Assembly (NCBI GenBank): GCA_048628825.1
Contig: CM109626.1
Span: forward strand, 16,957,077-17,021,076
From: Menidia menidia
Lineage: Eukaryota
Reading direction: 5' to 3'
DNA length: 64,000 bases
Positions within the stretch are counted from its first letter, which is position 1, and each line of letters starts with the position of its first letter. The notes beneath the pieces are model-generated. The model made no database searches. It had not been told where the DNA came from and was given only the letters and a program-made list of their open reading frames with translations. Below, one piece after another: positions 56,877-63,962 of this stretch. The position numbers were made by a program, and so were the translations under genes.

Positions 56877-56936
56877 CTGCTTCTCCGATGTTTTGGGCGT
56901 CCGTCTGAACATCCCAGCAAACCCCATGTTTTTCTC
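56877..56936 (-). CDS. Array exon, A module: EKNMGFAGMFRRTPKTSEKQ.
   Basis: The acceptor is cag|GAGAAAAAC and the donor AAGCAG|gtacag. Confidence 0.6.
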
Positions 56937-57346
56937 CTGTTAAGAAAAATAATAAAATCCTGAGCTGCTTGATGGTGGGCAACAGATATTTAACCTCTAA
57001 CCCTAAAGTCTTCTTTAATTCTAAACTTTGCCCTTTAAGGCTGGTGGGTTATTACGGCTGCAATCGTGGCTGAAACACCCGACCAATGAGAAGCCATGAT
57101 CGCTGCTGTTTACTTGTCTCAAAGAGGATGTTTTGGTCACTGGTTTCAAAGTTGAAATGGTTGTGAAACCAACTAAGGAAGGAAACAAAGGAACCATTGT
57201 AGCTGGCTGCCAAGAGTGAAGGAGCTTTAGAATGTAAGGCCAAACGTATTTAGGATCAAAGAAGTCCGGGTTTCCCCATTCAAGCTCTAATTAACACAAT
57301 AAAGACTGAGGACATACAGATATTGGCTTTACTCACCTTTGAGTTG

Positions 57347-57418
57347 TTCGTGGACTCTGACAGATCCTCTTTACTAGCAGACAGTTGATTCTGGGCTGAG
57401 ACATCGTCCTTTAAAACA
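57347..57418 (-). CDS. Array exon, B module: DDVSAQNQLSASKEDLSESTNNSK.
   Basis: The acceptor is ttttaaag|GAC and the donor TCAAAG|gtgagt. Confidence 0.55.
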
Positions 57419-57667
57419 GTCATTTTAGATTTCAAATAATAAAATCATCATTGCATAATAAAAAACTAATACAAATATTTCATTGGGCAAGAATGAATGG
57501 TCTCAGTTTTCTGAGGCAACTAGTCATGAATTGCTTGTTTCCAGCTGAAGCACTGTTTTTTTTTTTCATGCCTCAGGATCGTGTCAAAAATTCATTAATT
57601 ATCTAAACATTGGGAATATTTGTTCTCAGCAAGTTTTCAAAATGTATTCCCGTATCAAAGATCTCAC

Positions 57668-57730
57668 CTTTCCGAATTCGTTGAGGCTGTCACAGCTGCC
57701 CGACAGCTGGTTTGAGTCACTGAGGGGGTC
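57668..57730 (-). CDS. Array exon, B module: DPLSDSNQLSGSCDSLNEFGK.
   Basis: The acceptor is ttgttcag|GAC and the donor GGAAAG|gtgaga. Confidence 0.55.
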
Positions 57731-58221
57731 CTGAACAAAAAAGCAGCAGTCATTTCCCTTCTTTAAAAACATTAATTAAAGGCATGCAGGACGCTCTTAA
57801 CGTGTGACCAAAAAATGTATAATTAATTACATATTCCAAAAATCAAATAAACATGAGTGATAAAATTAATAGTGCAGAAATAATGACTTTAGTCTCACAT
57901 GAACATGTTTCTTTGTGGGTGTAATCATTGCATCAAAATGATTCTTTATACAGTAGTGAGGAAATTGTACATGTTACGAAAGGATTTTTTTTTCAATTTC
58001 TTTCATATTGAATTTATGTTGAGTTATTAAAAAAAAAGAAAATTATATCCTTAATTCTGTGCCGATGTCCACCTTTTGTTTTGGCTTTTTAAAAAAACAT
58101 TTTGACAAAAAGAGAGAATCATAAATATTTGCTCAGATTAAAAATGAATGGCAGCTTTACTGTATCTCAACACTGCTTTGTCAGTTTGAGATTGAAGTTG
58201 AAAATTTGTTAAATTTGTCAC

Positions 58222-58293
58222 CTGAGTAGCGATTGATCGTGGAGCTGGTTTGGGTGACTTTTTAAAGATTCCTGCAAATCCTCCTGTTTTCTC
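58222..58293 (-). CDS. Array exon, A module: EKTGGFAGIFKKSPKPAPRSIATQ.
   Basis: The acceptor is gtgacag|GAGAAAAC and the donor ACTCAG|gtgaca. Confidence 0.6.
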
Positions 58294-58384
58294 CTGTCAC
58301 AAATAAAACGGCGATAATTAATAACCAGTTACAAAAAATTCTGAATAACAAGCCAATACTGACGCTGACTGGACACATTTGTAC

Positions 58385-58459
58385 CTTTGTGGTGTTTGCC
58401 TCCAACAGATTTTCAGAACTGGAGGATAAGTTGTTGCCCTCGCCTGCTTCACTTGATTC
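58385..58459 (-). CDS. Array exon, B module: ESSEAGEGNNLSSSSENLLEANTTK.
   Basis: The acceptor is gtgttcag|GAA and the donor ACAAAG|gtacaa. Confidence 0.55.
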
Positions 58460-58558
58460 CTGAACACACAAAAAATTAAATTAAACATACTTAAGATGGA
58501 AAAATACAGTGAAATGAATCCTTTTGTTATGTTTTAGCATTCCGTTCCATCACTGCAC

Positions 58559-58612
58559 CTCATCGGCAGGTTTTGGACTTTTCTTGAACATCCCACTGAA
58601 AATATTTTTGTC
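58559..58612 (-). CDS. Array exon, A module: DKNIFSGMFKKSPKPADE.
   Basis: The acceptor is tttttcag|GAC and the donor GATGAG|gtgcag. Confidence 0.6.
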
Positions 58613-58785
58613 CTGAAAAAACACAGAACAGAAAGAAACCATCACGTTTCCTCTCATCACCCTGTCCCTGTGGAAGTAACCAAGGTTTTTAGGGATGTTT
58701 AGGGAAACAAGTTTCACAAAATACCAGGTTTTCTTTAGATAAATCCTGAGTTAAAGTAAATAATCACAAAGCCGTACACACTGAC

Positions 58786-58851
58786 CTCGTCCAACAGGTT
58801 TTCAAAACTTGAGGATCTTTTGAATATTCCCGCCAGGCCTCCTTTTTTCTC
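58786..58851 (-). CDS. Array exon, fused A/B module: EKKGGLAGIFKRSSSFENLLDE.
   Basis: The acceptor is tttcag|GAGAAAAAAGG and the donor GACGAG|gtcagt. Confidence 0.55.
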
Positions 58852-62022: not shown

Positions 62023-62091
62023 TTTTGGGCCGCTCTTCTCAGACAGATTCTCATCGCTGGCCGTCAGCTCCGTCTGCACCGACTCTTCATC
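62023..62091 (-). CDS. Array exon, B module: DEESVQTELTASDENLSEKSGPK.
   Basis: The acceptor is gtgtttcag|GAT and the donor CCAAAA|gtaagg. Confidence 0.55.
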
Positions 62092-62603
62092 CTGAAACAC
62101 AAACAACTCAAAATGTTAAAAATAAGTCTTTATATACAGCAGCCTAGCATCTTTTCCACAAAGTTTTAAAAGATCCTTTTATAGTCTGCCTTTCTGCATG
62201 CTCAAATGAGGGCATTCTAAAAGGTTTTAGGGCTTACAGAACAGAAGCACAGCATTTCAAAGGGACGTAGCAACATCAGGATCTTTGGAGTTGTACACAG
62301 TAACGTCCACATTCACATTTCAGCTCTGAGGAATGCTGCTTTACATAAAGGCAAATTAAAACAAAGACCACAATCCTCAGAATATTAAAGCAGATGATTT
62401 GTTGAAATCGAAATGCACAAAATGGAACATGTTTTTTTGTTGCCATAAATCAGGTATTTTTGGCTCTCTGGTAAAAATATTAATGTCCTTGACAAAATTT
62501 CACTGTCTTGTTTGTCTATAAATTATTATCATCAATACTTGGCTCTGGAAGATTAGAAAAACATGCTTCACAGTGGTTAAACGATCAGTGAGCATCTGAT
62601 TAC

Positions 62604-62672
62604 CTGCTCAGCTGCTCCTTCACCAACAATCTTGGGCGATTTGCGAAGGATCCCGCTAAAAAATCCTTTTTC
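62604..62672 (-). CDS. Array exon, A module: EKGFFSGILRKSPKIVGEGAAEQ.
   Basis: The acceptor is gtcaccag|GAAAAAGG and the donor GAGCAG|gtaatc. Confidence 0.6.
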
Positions 62673-62772
62673 CTGGTGACATCGGGCAGATAAGCGAACG
62701 TGATTAGTGTCTGTTACATCATGACAACCGACACATTTTAAAGAAATCCCCTCGCTGCACAGGTGAGCTCAC

Positions 62773-62838
62773 CTTTGAGCGATTCTCAGTCAGACTGTCA
62801 GAACTGCCGGACAGATCGCCAGAAAGAGACTTTTTGTC
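62773..62838 (-). CDS. Array exon, B module: DKKSLSGDLSGSSDSLTENRSK.
   Basis: The acceptor is cctcag|GAC and the donor TCAAAG|gtgagc. Confidence 0.55.
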
Positions 62839-62942
62839 CTGAGGCGTAAAAATAAAAGTATTTAAATGATTTGAGGTGAACTAAAGATGTGCCTGTGTGG
62901 TTTTGTTTTAGTGGCATTCAAACTGAGAAGAAACCGGCTGAC

Positions 62943-63005
62943 CTGGTCAGTCTCTGCTGGTTTGGGAGACCTCCTGAACATCCCGCTGAATATTCCTCCT
63001 TTTTC
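62943..63005 (-). CDS. Array exon, A module: EKGGIFSGMFRRSPKPAETDQ.
   Basis: The acceptor is gtttcag|GAAAAAGG and the donor GACCAG|gtcagc. It is anchored by ORF 62862..63059. Confidence 0.65.
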
Positions 63006-63105
63006 CTGAAACGGACGCACAGCCTCAGTGTCATTCAGTGGAGGAAAGTCTACAGTCACAACAGTTCATATCATCTTTGCAGCTTGGACACACAGAGCTG
63101 CTCAC

Positions 63106-63168
63106 CTTGCCCTGTTCAGAAAGGCTGTCGCTGCTGGCCGACAGCTCGCTGTGAGCACTCAGGTTCTC
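63106..63168 (-). CDS. Array exon, B module: ENLSAHSELSASSDSLSEQGK.
   Basis: The acceptor is gtttcag|GAG and the donor GGCAAG|gtgagc. Confidence 0.55.
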
Positions 63169-63310
63169 CTGAAACAGCAAGGAGGCAAAACAGAAACTTT
63201 TAAATTATTTTCAAAAATAGAAAAAGCTTTCACTGGTCTTTTTATCCGGAACAATGACATCAATTCTCTTATGAGTCACATGACCACAGAACATCAGGGG
63301 GGTGTCACAC

Positions 63311-63376
63311 CTGTGCAGAGGCCTCATCTCCTGACTTATTGGACTTTTTCAGGATGTTGAAGAGCCCCCCTTTTTC
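63311..63376 (-). CDS. Array exon, A module: EKGGLFNILKKSNKSGDEASAQ.
   Basis: The acceptor is ttttttttttttttccag|GAAAAAGGGGGG and the donor GCACAG|gtgtga. Confidence 0.6.
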
Positions 63377-63890
63377 CTGGAAAAAAAAAAAAAAATTACT
63401 TACTTTTATTTAAAAACTTACATCAGGTTTATCTCGGAAAGTTTTTATCATTTAAATATCCCTCAAAGATCTCTTAAAGTTTGCTTGCTAAAGACACTAA
63501 AATAGCACTTTACATGTTTTTTCTCTGACGTTTTCTCCTTTTCCTCGACATCTTCAGGACCACTGTCTTCTTTACTGACCTTCAGAGAAAAAAGGAAAGT
63601 TTTGTTGTTTTAAATCGAGCCCATTTCCAGAAATCTTTATACTTTATTTTACTTTTTAGATAAATTGGTCATGAACCCAATTTGTATTATATTAATGAGA
63701 TGTACGCAGTCAGTTATGACACAGAGACTTGGTATGACTTTGAAGTTTAAAAGCTTTTAACCAACAGTGTGGAAATTTTTTGGTTTGCAGACACTTCAAA
63801 GGGGAGAAAAACAAAGCCCCAGCAATCGTTCTAAGCAGGTCTTCCCAGGATGAATTTAAAGAAACCAAAAAGCAACAGGGTACACTTTAC

Positions 63891-63962
63891 CGTCTGGGTT
63901 GGACAAGATGAACTGTCTTTGGCTGATTTCCAGAAAATTCCAGCAAGCCGACCTCCTTTGTC
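63891..63962 (-). CDS. Array exon, A module: DKGGRLAGIFWKSAKDSSSCPTQT.
   Basis: The acceptor is gttttcag|GACAAAGGAGG and the donor CAGACG|gtaaag. Confidence 0.55.

What the first reader, a model, noticed from the sequence alone, without database searches (positions are those of the whole stretch)
56877..63962. The exon array alternates a MARCKS-effector-like basic/aromatic module with an acidic phospho-Ser-like module, in strict A-B periodicity.
The A exons encode EKGG(I/L/F)FSG(M/I/L)F(K/R)(K/R)(S/T)PKP..., with Phe/Ser/Lys spacing reminiscent of membrane- and calmodulin-binding basic effector domains (MARCKS KKSFKLSGFSFKK). The B exons encode D/E-x3-LSxSS(D/E)(S/N)L(S/T)E-x3-K, which is acidic with clustered Ser in CK2-like contexts. 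Every unit is a multiple of 3 nt (54, 57, 60, 63, 66, 69, 72 or 75). The first 9-10 nt after each A-module acceptor (GAGAAAAAGG / GAAAAAGG) and the acceptor itself are conserved at the DNA level, implying recent expansion by unequal crossing-over with intron co-duplication. The function of a 25-fold reiteration of a membrane-binding peptide ahead of a pore-forming domain is unknown. Possibilities are a multivalent membrane tether or a phospho-regulated autoinhibitor.
Basis: partly seen in the sequence, partly recalled or inferred. Interest (0 to 1): 0.7.

Follow-up and report, generated by a model that had tools for sequence, protein, structure and literature searches.

The report
Disordered repeat tail of fish ApoL gene
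The flagged region is the real, minus-strand array of 25 tiny exons encoding an old, teleost-only, disordered N-terminal tail (alternating Phe/Lys modules and acidic Ser-rich modules) of an apolipoprotein-L-domain membrane protein; the tail has not been described in the papers searched, is not MARCKS-like and did not expand recently.

Summary
The exon array is real. On the minus strand, 25 mini-exons (54-75 nt) all have AG/GT borders and are all phase 0-0. They encode 12 A modules (EKGGΦFSGΦFKKSPKP), 11 B modules (LSxSxDSLSE), one A/B hybrid and one odd acidic exon. These lie upstream of a Pfam ApoL domain (PF05461).

The alternation is not strict. It breaks at exon 2, at exons 19-20 (hybrid, then A) and at exons 23-24 (B, B).

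The gene is the teleost "apold1a / si:rp71-1g18.13" type. Its 5' end lies beyond the window.

The array is ancient, not recent:
- Each unit has its own positional ortholog in other fishes.
- The window's introns share no homology with each other.
- A tarpon paralog has the same one-module-per-exon layout.
- dN/dS against platyfish is 0.28.

The conserved GARAAAGG at the start of A exons is a synonymous-site constraint (Lys codon AAA in 13 of 13). It is probably linked to splicing and does not indicate recent duplication.

AlphaFold2 predicts the array to be disordered. The A module is far weaker than the MARCKS effector domain (net +1.75 versus +13), and the whole array has net charge -19.

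An exhaustive profile search found the A+B unit only in teleost ApoL genes. It has no Pfam family and I found no literature on it.

Most likely function (inferred): a phospho-tunable, multivalent sticker/spacer tail whose valency is set by exon skipping.

The parts
63891..63962 (-). Mini-exon 1, A-type (72 nt): DKGGRLAGIFWKSAKDSSSCPTQT
   Evidence: AG/GT borders, phase 0. Positional ortholog in Anableps P0001 at residue 223.
63514..63579 (-). Mini-exon 2, acidic but not B-type (66 nt): VSKEDSGPEDVEEKEKTSEKKH
   Evidence: Ortholog in P0001 at residue 247. Not matched by the unit HMM.
63311..63376 (-). Mini-exon 3, A (66 nt): EKGGLFNILKKSNKSGDEASAQ
63106..63168 (-). Mini-exon 4, B (63 nt): ENLSAHSELSASSDSLSEQGK
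62943..63005 (-). Mini-exon 5, A (63 nt): EKGGIFSGMFRRSPKPAETDQ
62773..62838 (-). Mini-exon 6, B (66 nt): DKKSLSGDLSGSSDSLTENRSK
62604..62672 (-). Mini-exon 7, A (69 nt): EKGFFSGILRKSPKIVGEGAAEQ
   Evidence: Ortholog in Cottoperca P0003.
62023..62091 (-). Mini-exon 8, B (69 nt): DEESVQTELTASDENLSEKSGPK
61868..61939 (-). Mini-exon 9, A (72 nt): EKGGVFSSMFKKSPKPSEGPRLEE
61553..61612 (-). Mini-exon 10, B (60 nt): GTESLHSEFSESSENLSDNK
61347..61403 (-). Mini-exon 11, A (57 nt): EKGGLFSGLRRKTPKSTTE
60803..60871 (-). Mini-exon 12, B (69 nt): ENLLAHGDVSGSTDSLSDAANSK
60605..60676 (-). Mini-exon 13, A (72 nt): EKGSIFSGIFKKPPKSSDAAQSDE
60248..60307 (-). Mini-exon 14, B (60 nt): DGLSDCELSASNENLSENKQ
   Evidence: DNA conserved with platyfish.
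60094..60168 (-). Mini-exon 15, A (75 nt): EKGKGIFSGLLKKTPKASGERTEAP
59937..60002 (-). Mini-exon 16, B (66 nt): DGEEEQQLWASSEDLSENPSTK
59782..59850 (-). Mini-exon 17, A (69 nt): EKNIFSNMFKKPQKPAEGATAEP
59624..59689 (-). Mini-exon 18, B (66 nt): ELAAENQLKSSSENLTETTGQK
58786..58851 (-). Mini-exon 19, A/B hybrid (66 nt): EKKGGLAGIFKRSSSFENLLDE. It is the most conserved unit.
   Evidence: 20 of 22 residues identical to platyfish, dN 0.04. Conserved in 20 homologs.
58559..58612 (-). Mini-exon 20, A (54 nt): DKNIFSGMFKKSPKPADE
58385..58459 (-). Mini-exon 21, B (75 nt): ESSEAGEGNNLSSSSENLLEANTTK
58222..58293 (-). Mini-exon 22, A (72 nt): EKTGGFAGIFKKSPKPAPRSIATQ
57668..57730 (-). Mini-exon 23, B (63 nt): DPLSDSNQLSGSCDSLNEFGK
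57337..57408 (-). Mini-exon 24, B (72 nt): DDVSAQNQLSASKEDLSESTNNSK. It is the second B in a row.
56877..56936 (-). Mini-exon 25, A (60 nt): EKNMGFAGMFRRTPKTSEKQ. It is the last unit of the array.
56350..56421 (-). Linker exon (72 nt): EGEDTEAPAGGGLRRRRTIKKKRR, a basic cluster
   Evidence: Conserved in orthologs.
56170..56232 (-). Linker exon (63 nt): VVSFRIKKTLPKIPKIGQASQ. Together with the previous exon it forms the conserved ...KKKRRVVSFRxKKTLP junction, which matches an RVxF-like regex.
55997..56059 (-). Linker exon (63 nt): SSEKMPIIEESVELQDLNAPQ
55643..55717 (-). Linker exon (75 nt): ESTVEIQTVQMAAFPSEENPAEPTP
55516..55555 (-). Exon encoding ESDELMEWWNTVK(G), the conserved LMEWW motif at the start of the ApoL region
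55382..55433 (-). Exon encoding (G)WTEWTESSNFQEDDEE(M)
54856..55270 (-). ApoL domain, N-terminal half, including the Gly/Ala-rich hydrophobic hairpin
   Evidence: Pfam PF05461, E = 5.8e-21. 89% identical to a cichlid ortholog.
52542..54164 (-). Last exon: ApoL domain C-terminal half, then a long Lys/Glu/Arg-rich tail and the stop codon
   Evidence: Pfam PF05461, E = 2.1e-8..

Best explanation
The region encodes most of the N-terminal tail of a teleost ApoL-domain membrane protein. Databases label the gene apold1a or si:rp71-1g18.13. Orthologs have no signal-peptide-like N-terminus, so the tail is presumed cytosolic.

Shown:
- The tail is a tandem array of about 22-residue modules, one per symmetric phase-0 mini-exon.
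- It arose by tandem duplication of exon plus intron early in teleost evolution.
- It has since been kept unit by unit under purifying selection.
- It is predicted to be intrinsically disordered.
- In other species, annotated isoforms drop whole A, B or A+B exons.

Inferred mechanism: the tail is a multivalent 'sticker-and-spacer' polyampholyte.
- A cores (GG-Φ-F-S-G-Φ-F-K-K-S/T-P-K-P) are weak hydrophobic/basic stickers. Each carries a proline-directed S/T-P site.
- B cores ([DE]-L-S-x-S-x-[DE]-[SN]-L-[ST]-[DE]) are acidic modules that acidophilic kinases can multiply phosphorylate.
- The resulting charge wave of about 45 residues would let A modules engage acidic surfaces. Those surfaces could be the cytosolic membrane leaflet around the ApoL domain, B modules in cis or trans, or a partner protein.
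- Phosphorylation of A and B, possibly reversed through the conserved RVxF-like site at the junction, would tune that engagement.
- Exon skipping would set the number of stickers.

The purine-rich GAR-AAA-GG start of A exons probably also helps recognition of these tiny exons.
For: Identity and structure:
- 25 AG/GT phase-0 exons and an ApoL Pfam hit downstream.
- 86 teleost homologs, most also carrying PF05461.
- Full-length orthologs with 11-17 units lying N-terminal of the ApoL domain.

Age:
- Unit-by-unit orthology in collinear order, including the irregular units.
- No intron homology in the window, against 93% intron identity in the tarpon positive control.
- The same exon-per-module layout in the tarpon apol1-type paralog.

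Selection:
- Cross-species DNA matches lie only on exons.
- dN/dS is 0.28, with A modules the most constrained.
- Motif cores are conserved across 688 units.

Disorder: AF2 pLDDT is 33-44 with no secondary structure across the array, while the ApoL domain is helical with pLDDT up to 94.

Charge pattern:
- A modules are net +1.75 and B modules net -3.4.
- Charge autocorrelation is +0.56 at lag 45 and -0.55 at lag 22-24. Charge segregation is above shuffles, z = 2.3-3.6.

Cassette splicing: smelt isoforms differ by 45-, 49- and 140-residue blocks (1-3 A+B pairs), and cutthroat trout isoforms differ by a 23-residue B exon.

Synonymous constraint: Lys codon AAA in 13 of 13 window A exons and 4 of 4 tarpon A exons, with 88% purine in the first 12 nt.

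Junction: the ...KKKRRVVSFRxKKTLP motif is conserved in 44 homologs.
Against: - No experiment or expression data supports any function.
- Phosphorylation, membrane binding and A-B pairing are all inferred.
- The array is net acidic (-19) before any phosphorylation, which argues against strong binding to acidic membranes.
- Gly3, Gly4, Gly8, Phe6, Phe10, Pro14 and Lys15 are conserved very specifically. That looks more like a peptide ligand for a protein pocket than like non-specific lipid binding.
- Low AF2 confidence is compatible with disorder but does not prove it.
- The isoform evidence comes from automatic annotation in other species, not from reads of this species.
- The splicing-enhancer reading of the AAA bias rests on p = 0.012 in one gene plus four tarpon exons.
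Confidence: 0.55

Rival explanations
1. The A module is a specific short linear motif that binds a protein domain, for example in trafficking or cytoskeletal machinery, and is not a lipid or electrostatic sticker. It would be a sister of the NPF (EH-domain-ligand type) modules that occupy the same place in the paralogous fish ApoL genes. The array would then be an adaptor platform, and the B modules would act as phospho-regulated spacers.
For: - Position-specific conservation of Gly, Phe and Pro in the A core.
- Paralogs carry 2-4 NPF modules, each on its own mini-exon. Their first half (G-Φ-Φ-x-G-Φ-Φ-K/R) resembles the A core.
- Nearly the same core, 'KSGIFSGIFGKK', recurs about 15 times with acidic spacers in a beetle giant ankyrin-2-like tail. 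'ITGLFKKSP' and 'IVGMFKRTP' recur in nematode repeat proteins.
Against: - No partner is known.
- The window gene has no NPF, DPF or DPW motif.
- The matches outside fishes are only 5-14 bits per repeat, so they may be convergent or compositional.
- The A/NPF resemblance was judged by eye only.
Confidence: 0.3
2. A modules are MARCKS-effector-like electrostatic membrane/calmodulin switches, reiterated 25 times by recent unequal crossing-over. They would act as a membrane tether or phospho-regulated autoinhibitor of the pore-forming domain.
For: - Local resemblance of FSGMFKK to SGFSFKK.
- Presence of Phe, Lys and Ser.
- Alternation with acidic Ser-rich modules.
- Unequal crossing-over is demonstrably how the family grows.
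Against: - Net charge is +1.75 against +13, aromatics 1.75 against 5, and every A module contains acidic residues. The array is net -19.
- MARCKS effector domains score -5.5 and -1.1 bits against the unit HMM.
- No Pfam MARCKS hit.
- Only 13 A-type copies, not 25.
- The array is ancient and unit-wise orthologous, and its introns are unrelated.
- AF2 shows no docking on the ApoL domain.
Confidence: 0.1
3. The array is a largely sequence-independent entropic spacer or low-complexity filler. Its repeats would persist only because phase-0 exons are tolerated. The conserved residues at unit ends would merely reflect splice-site and splicing-enhancer constraints.
For: - Predicted disorder.
- Unit numbers vary between species from 2 to 17.
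- Exon-end residues (E1, K2, terminal K/Q/E) coincide with splice consensus and the purine-rich tract.
Against: - Internal positions far from exon ends are the most conserved: Phe6, Gly8, Phe10, K11, K12, and Ser36 (95%) and Leu40 (92%).
- dN/dS is 0.28.
- Unit-wise orthology holds across orders of fishes and across paralogs that split early in teleosts.
Confidence: 0.05

Closest known systems
Apolipoprotein L family (Pfam ApoL PF05461; human APOL1-6 and APOLD1)
   Same: The C-terminal part of the gene is a bona fide ApoL domain with the Gly/Ala-rich hydrophobic hairpin. Orthologs have no signal-peptide-like N-terminus, as in the intracellular APOLs that sit on the cytoplasmic leaflet (PMC8557400).
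   Different: - No described APOL or APOLD1 has an N-terminal A/B repeat array.
- Published family histories start at amniotes and do not treat the fish genes.
- The zebrafish 'apol1' used in knock-down studies was a short model starting at the conserved LMEWW motif, so it lacked any such tail.
Nopp140 (NOLC1, dao-5) and Treacle (TCOF1): alternating acidic-Ser and basic Lys/Pro repeats in disordered scaffolds (from general knowledge)
   Same: - Alternating acidic Ser clusters in CK2-type contexts and basic Lys/Pro segments.
- A disordered polyampholyte.
- Repeat units encoded by separate exons, as in Treacle.

This resemblance explains the automatic names such as 'nucleolar protein dao-5-like'.
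   Different: - No sequence homology and no Pfam hit.
- The fish A module has an invariant Gly/Phe hydrophobic core that those proteins lack.
- The array is fused to a membrane domain rather than to a nucleolar protein.
MARCKS effector domain
   Same: Unstructured, contains Phe, Ser and Lys, and shares the local string FSG-x-FKK versus SGFSFKK.
   Different: About 7-fold lower net charge, with acidic residues inside every module and about a third of the aromatics. The match to the unit HMM is negative. It is neither a family member nor a close functional analogue.
Motif arrays of endocytic adaptors (NPF, DPF and similar repeats in disordered tails)
   Same: Many copies of a short motif in a disordered tail, one per small exon. 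The paralogous fish ApoL genes carry true NPF modules in the equivalent position.
   Different: The window gene has no NPF, DPF or DPW motif. No binding partner is known for the A core.
Repeat tails of an insect giant ankyrin-2-like isoform (Dalotia coriaria) and of nematode repeat proteins
   Same: The same design at motif level: 'EKEKRKSGIFSGIFGKKDK' plus acidic spacers, about 15 copies, and 'KITGLFKKSP' or 'GKIVGMFKRTP' units. All are in proteins expected to sit at membranes: ankyrin, and proteins ending in a CaaX-like motif.
   Different: Only weak per-repeat scores (5-14 bits), different unit lengths and no B module. Homology is not shown, and convergence is at least as likely.

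Membership tests
Apolipoprotein L family (Pfam PF05461), for the domain downstream of the array | Match to the ApoL profile above Pfam's gathering score (25.9 bits) | tested here: met
   75.6 bits (E = 5.8e-21) for window 54760-55293 and 34.4 bits (E = 2.1e-8) for 52545-54185. 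A full-length ortholog scores 108 bits.
Apolipoprotein L family (Pfam PF05461), for the domain downstream of the array | Helical domain containing a Gly/Ala-rich hydrophobic hairpin | tested here: met
   The sequence GGGVASVAGSVATITGLILAPFTFGASIIVTAVGIRVATAGSI is flanked by long helices with pLDDT up to 94 in the AF2 model of the ortholog. The hairpin itself is modelled with low confidence.
Apolipoprotein L family (Pfam PF05461), for the domain downstream of the array | Pore or channel activity in membranes | not testable with these tools
   Needs electrophysiology or liposome flux assays.
MARCKS effector domain / MARCKS family | Highly basic stretch of about 25 residues (about 13 Lys/Arg, no acidic residues) | tested here: not met
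   A modules average 4.5 basic and 2.75 acidic residues, net +1.75.
MARCKS effector domain / MARCKS family | About five Phe residues interspersed among the basic residues | tested here: not met
   1.75 aromatic residues per A module.
MARCKS effector domain / MARCKS family | Sequence similarity to MARCKS (profile match) | tested here: not met
   No Pfam family matches the array at E <= 1. MARCKS and MARCKSL1 effector domains score -5.5 and -1.1 bits against the unit HMM.
MARCKS effector domain / MARCKS family | Binding to acidic phospholipids and to Ca2+/calmodulin, reversed by phosphorylation | not testable with these tools
   Biochemical assay needed.
Nopp140/Treacle-type acidic-Ser/basic repeat scaffolds | Alternation of acidic Ser clusters with basic Lys/Pro segments | tested here: met
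   B modules are net -3.4 with 6.3 Ser/Thr. A modules are net +1.75. The charge period is about 45 residues.
Nopp140/Treacle-type acidic-Ser/basic repeat scaffolds | Sequence homology to Nopp140 or Treacle families | tested here: not met
   No Pfam hit for the array. All real homologs are teleost ApoL genes.
Nopp140/Treacle-type acidic-Ser/basic repeat scaffolds | Nucleolar localisation and CK2 hyperphosphorylation | not testable with these tools
   No data. Fusion to a membrane domain argues against nucleolar localisation.
Recently expanded tandem exon array (unequal crossing-over with intron co-duplication) | Introns flanking different units are homologous to each other | tested here: not met
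   In the window, the best intron-intron match has E = 0.002 and is low-complexity. The positive control in tarpon gives 93% over 116 nt, E = 2e-39.
Recently expanded tandem exon array (unequal crossing-over with intron co-duplication) | Units within the gene are more alike than orthologous units between species | tested here: not met
   For nearly all units the ortholog score exceeds the best paralog score, and the order is collinear.
EH-domain ligand (NPF) arrays | Presence of Asn-Pro-Phe tripeptides | tested here: not met
   0 NPF in the window array and 0 in window-type orthologs, against 2-4 in the two paralog groups.

The most novel reading that the evidence does not exclude
The core G-Φ-F-S-G-Φ-F-K-K would be an unrecognised short linear motif used across animals in long disordered tails of membrane-associated scaffolds. 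Examples would be teleost ApoL proteins, insect giant ankyrin and nematode CaaX-ended repeat proteins. It would bind one conserved target, either a cytoskeletal or trafficking protein or a specific membrane surface. In fishes, its alternation with a phosphorylatable acidic module would form a switchable multivalent tether controlling where and when the ApoL membrane domain acts.
Probability: 0.12. Interest if true: 0.7.

Novelty: new variant of a known kind. Interest (0 to 1): 0.38.

Why it matters
- It defines a repeat family (the A+B unit of about 46 residues) that is absent from Pfam and from the literature I could search. An exhaustive search found only 104 cluster representatives among 1.84 billion proteins. 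Every strong hit whose source I checked was a teleost ApoL gene.
- It shows that fish ApoL-domain proteins are much larger and more modular than the short models used so far. The zebrafish 'apol1' knocked down as a model for APOL1 kidney disease was annotated from an internal Met at the conserved LMEWW motif. Long isoforms with N-terminal motif arrays may therefore have been overlooked in those experiments.
- It is a clean natural example of valency encoded exon by exon in a disordered tail, kept for hundreds of millions of years.
- The possible synonymous-site constraint could be tested for a role in mini-exon recognition.

Beyond that, this is an uncharacterised disordered tail whose function is unknown.

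Tried and rejected
- Tandem Repeats Finder found nothing in the array, because the units are too diverged and are separated by introns.
- A Pfam scan of the array gave no family. PF26369, precomputed for one homolog, was not reproduced in my scan.
- Literature searches for apold1a, teleost ApoL, APOLD1 in zebrafish and giant-ankyrin repeats found no description of the modules.
- The first isoform comparisons showed cassette differences but none at canonical A or B exons. Later sets did.
- I looked for a tandem ApoL paralog in the window and found none.
- I considered several known motifs by eye against the 688-unit consensus and rejected them, because key positions do not fit or are not conserved: WH2/thymosin LKKT, FG-nucleoporin-like, AP-2 and GAE appendage motifs, clathrin box, LIR, pLxIS, the B56 LxxIxE motif and the β-TrCP degron. 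These are recollections of motif definitions, not formal tests.
- No fold search was run, because the array has no confident structure.

Full report
**1. What is in the sequence**

The finding lies on the minus strand. Reading 63962 down to 56877, I delimited 25 short open segments. Each is preceded by a polypyrimidine tract plus AG and followed, in frame, by a consensus GT donor. Lengths are 54-75 nt, all multiples of three, so every exon is phase 0-0.

Twelve exons encode the A module (for example EKGGIFSGMFRRSPKPAETDQ). Eleven encode the B module (for example ENLSAHSELSASSDSLSEQGK). Exon 19 is a hybrid (EKKGGLAGIFKRSSSFENLLDE). Exon 2 is acidic but is not a B module.

The alternation is therefore good but not strict. 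It breaks at exon 2, at exons 19-20 (hybrid, then A) and at exons 23-24 (B, B). The A-type peptide occurs 13 times, not 25. An HMM scan of all six frames found no further units in the window.

**2. What gene it belongs to**

Downstream, at lower coordinates, four more small linker exons and two short exons (40 and 52 nt) lead into two large exons that match Pfam ApoL (PF05461) above its threshold. These are followed by a long Lys/Glu/Arg-rich tail and a stop codon at 52542.

The spliced array peptide finds 86 proteins, all from teleosts, and most also carry PF05461. Full-length orthologs, such as those of sardine, sole, fugu and mackerel, are 1100-1700 residues long. They carry 11-17 units between an N-terminus reading MExCMxKPEVKKKPKPPKP... 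and the ApoL domain. Unit 1 of the window aligns to residue 223 of the Anableps protein, so the 5' end of the gene lies beyond position 64000.

Teleosts have three ApoL-domain paralog groups:
- the window type, labelled apold1a or si:rp71-1g18.13, at 80% identity or more in the ApoL domain;
- an apold1b / si:cabz01007802.1 type, at 66-80%;
- an 'apol1' type, at about 45%.

The automatic names for the long forms (dao-5-like, titin homolog, claspin-like, DMP1-like and others) reflect composition only.

**3. Old or recent?**

Four tests contradict this for the window gene.
- The 24 introns show no homology to one another (best E = 0.002, low complexity). Same-class exons are only 70-83% identical.
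- Nearly every unit scores higher to its positional counterpart in Anableps or Cottoperca than to any other unit in the window. The order is collinear, including the irregular units.
- In tarpon, a basal teleost, the apol1-type paralog has the same architecture, with every A, B and NPF module on its own phase-0 mini-exon.
- Against the platyfish orthologous locus, DNA similarity is confined to exons, exon sizes are conserved, and dN/dS over units 17-25 is 0.28.

The proposed growth mechanism is nevertheless real in the family. Two tarpon introns are 93% identical over their full 116 nt. Anableps and pink salmon proteins contain exact multi-unit duplications.

The DNA-level conservation at the start of A exons is also real. 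Lys codon 2 is AAA in 13 of 13 A exons, against 28:16 for other internal Lys codons (p = 0.012). The first 12 nt are 88% purine. The same GAGAAAGGAGG occurs in tarpon. This is an ancient synonymous constraint. I interpret it, by inference, as a purine-rich splicing signal for tiny exons.

**4. Nature of the modules**

From 688 unique units the cores are:
- A = E-K-G-G-Φ-F-[SG]-G-[MIL]-F-[KR]-[KR]-[ST]-P-K-P
- B = [DE]-x-L-S-x3-[ED]-L-S-[AG]-S-x-[DE]-[SN]-L-[ST]-[ED]-N-x3-K

Ser36 is conserved in 95% of units and Leu40 in 92%. A variable linker of about 8 residues separates the two cores.

AlphaFold2 on the killifish ortholog gives pLDDT 33-44 and no secondary structure across the whole array and linker. 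The ApoL domain is helical with pLDDT up to 94. No module docks on the domain.

A modules average net +1.75 and B modules net -3.4. The array is net -19 with 21% Ser/Thr. Charge shows a clear period of about 45 residues and more segregation than shuffled sequences.

The MARCKS effector domain (13 basic, 0 acidic, 5 Phe) is a poor match on every defining feature and scores negative bits against the unit HMM.

**5. Distribution**

An exhaustive profile search of 1.84 billion cluster representatives found only 104 hits. All 29 strong hits whose names I retrieved are teleost.

The only hits outside fishes match the A core alone and weakly, at 5-14 bits per repeat:
- a beetle giant ankyrin-2-like tail with about 15 copies of 'KSGIFSGIFGKKDK' plus acidic spacers;
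- nematode repeat proteins with 'KITGLFKKSP' or 'GKIVGMFKRTP', some ending in a CaaX-like CAML.

This is a motif-level resemblance, not demonstrated homology.

**6. Splicing**

I cannot see reads for this species. Annotated isoforms of the same gene in smelt differ by blocks of 45, 49 and 140 residues, which are exactly one to three A+B pairs. Isoforms in cutthroat trout differ by one 23-residue B exon, and in rainbow trout by a 16-residue B-like exon. This fits cassette use of these symmetric exons.

**7. Mechanism**

Shown: this is an ancient, selected, disordered, exon-modular tail on an ApoL membrane domain.

Inferred: it is a multivalent sticker/spacer polyampholyte.
- The hydrophobic/basic A cores would engage acidic surfaces (membrane leaflet, B modules, or a partner protein).
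- The Ser-rich acidic B cores and the S/T-P site in A would be phosphorylation-tuned.
- Valency would be set by exon skipping.
- A strongly conserved junction...RRTIKKKRRVVSFRxKKTLP, matches an RVxF-type phosphatase-docking pattern and may belong to this regulation.

The main rival is that A is a specific peptide ligand, a sister of the NPF modules of the paralogs. I cannot separate the two readings with these tools.

**8. Comparison with known systems, and novelty**

The domain is a member of the ApoL family. The array belongs to no described family. In design it is closest to the Nopp140/Treacle acidic/basic repeats and to the motif arrays of endocytic adaptors.

I found no paper describing it. 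The APOL family history in PMC8557400 starts at amniotes. The zebrafish apol1 studied by knock-down was a short model beginning at the LMEWW motif.

I rate it a new variant of a known kind. It is solid and tidy, with moderate interest and unknown function.

Noticed in passing
Loci L001 (tarpon, 5115-8887) and proteins P0010, P0022, P0027, P0137, P0154, P0159: The two paralogous teleost ApoL gene groups carry 2-4 NPF modules (GVMGKILKNPFRS, GAMSKLNPFRSA, GMISGLIQMVNPFKSS, KKPRNPFLP). Each is on its own 48-57 nt phase-0 exon, alternating with acidic spacer exons. NPF is the classical EH-domain ligand (from general knowledge). The first half of these modules resembles the A core.
   Followed up: partly
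window 56170-56421 (minus strand; two linker exons): The junction RRRRTIKKKRR|VVSFRIKKTLPKIPK is almost invariant in 44 homologs. It combines an NLS-like basic cluster with a match to the PP1-docking RVxF pattern ([RK]x0-1[VIL][^P][FW]).
   Followed up: partly
window 58786-58851 (exon 19): The A/B hybrid exon EKKGGLAGIFKRSSSFENLLDE is the most conserved unit (dN 0.04 against platyfish). Its KR-S-x-S-[FI]-[DE]-N-L-[LF]-[DE]-E half is conserved in 20 homologs and contains a basophilic-kinase-type KRSSS site.
   Followed up: partly
window 56877-63962, first 12 nt of each A exon: There is a synonymous-site constraint. Lys codon 2 is AAA in 13 of 13 A exons (p = 0.012 against other Lys codons) and in 4 of 4 tarpon A exons, within an 88% purine tract. 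This may be an exonic splicing enhancer for mini-exons.
   Followed up: partly
Literature: PMC4492502 (zebrafish apol1, NP_001025309): The translation-blocking morpholino used for zebrafish apol1 targets ...ACC CTC ATG GAA TGG CTG GAC GAC..., which encodes ..TLMEWLDD. This is the conserved LMEWW motif, which is internal in the long isoforms of other fishes. The studied model may therefore be a 5'-truncated or short isoform.
   Followed up: partly
Proteins P0293 (Dalotia coriaria ankyrin-2-like, residues about 2230-3800), P0230 and P0247 (Bursaphelenchus), P0232 and P0268 (Caenorhabditis): These are long tandem repeats containing an A-core-like motif. The beetle protein has KSGIFSGIFGKKDK plus the spacer SEDEKTDDEE. 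The nematode proteins have KITGLFKKSPSHLDYP or GKIVGMFKRTPAHEDYP...VYHSGRSD. The Bursaphelenchus proteins end in a CaaX-like CAML.
   Followed up: partly
window 52542-53700 (minus strand; C-terminal tail of the gene) and Xiphophorus P0012: After the ApoL domain comes an acidic coiled-coil-like stretch, then a very long Lys/Glu/Arg-rich tail containing 'EKGLFKLKKDKKEEK'. In platyfish this part is a repeat, 'EPKKSKESVLDIFKIKKEKKEEKSMKEK', present about 7 times. This is a second, C-terminal array with a hydrophobic-Phe-basic motif.
   Followed up: no
window 17591-18517 (minus) and 39677-40261 (plus): Neighbouring genes are a C2H2 zinc-finger exon (Pfam zf-C2H2_15, GLI/GLIS-like sequence) and an RRM exon resembling hnRNP C/RALY. 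A GC-rich block (51-57% GC) at 38-42 kb accompanies the RRM exon.
   Followed up: partly
L002 1-3743 (platyfish), and gene names: A second ApoL-domain gene lies directly upstream of the window-type gene in platyfish. Adjacent locus tags in tarpon, moray eel, mudskipper goby and pink salmon suggest the paralogs are tandem neighbours. In this window no second ApoL locus is present.
   Followed up: partly
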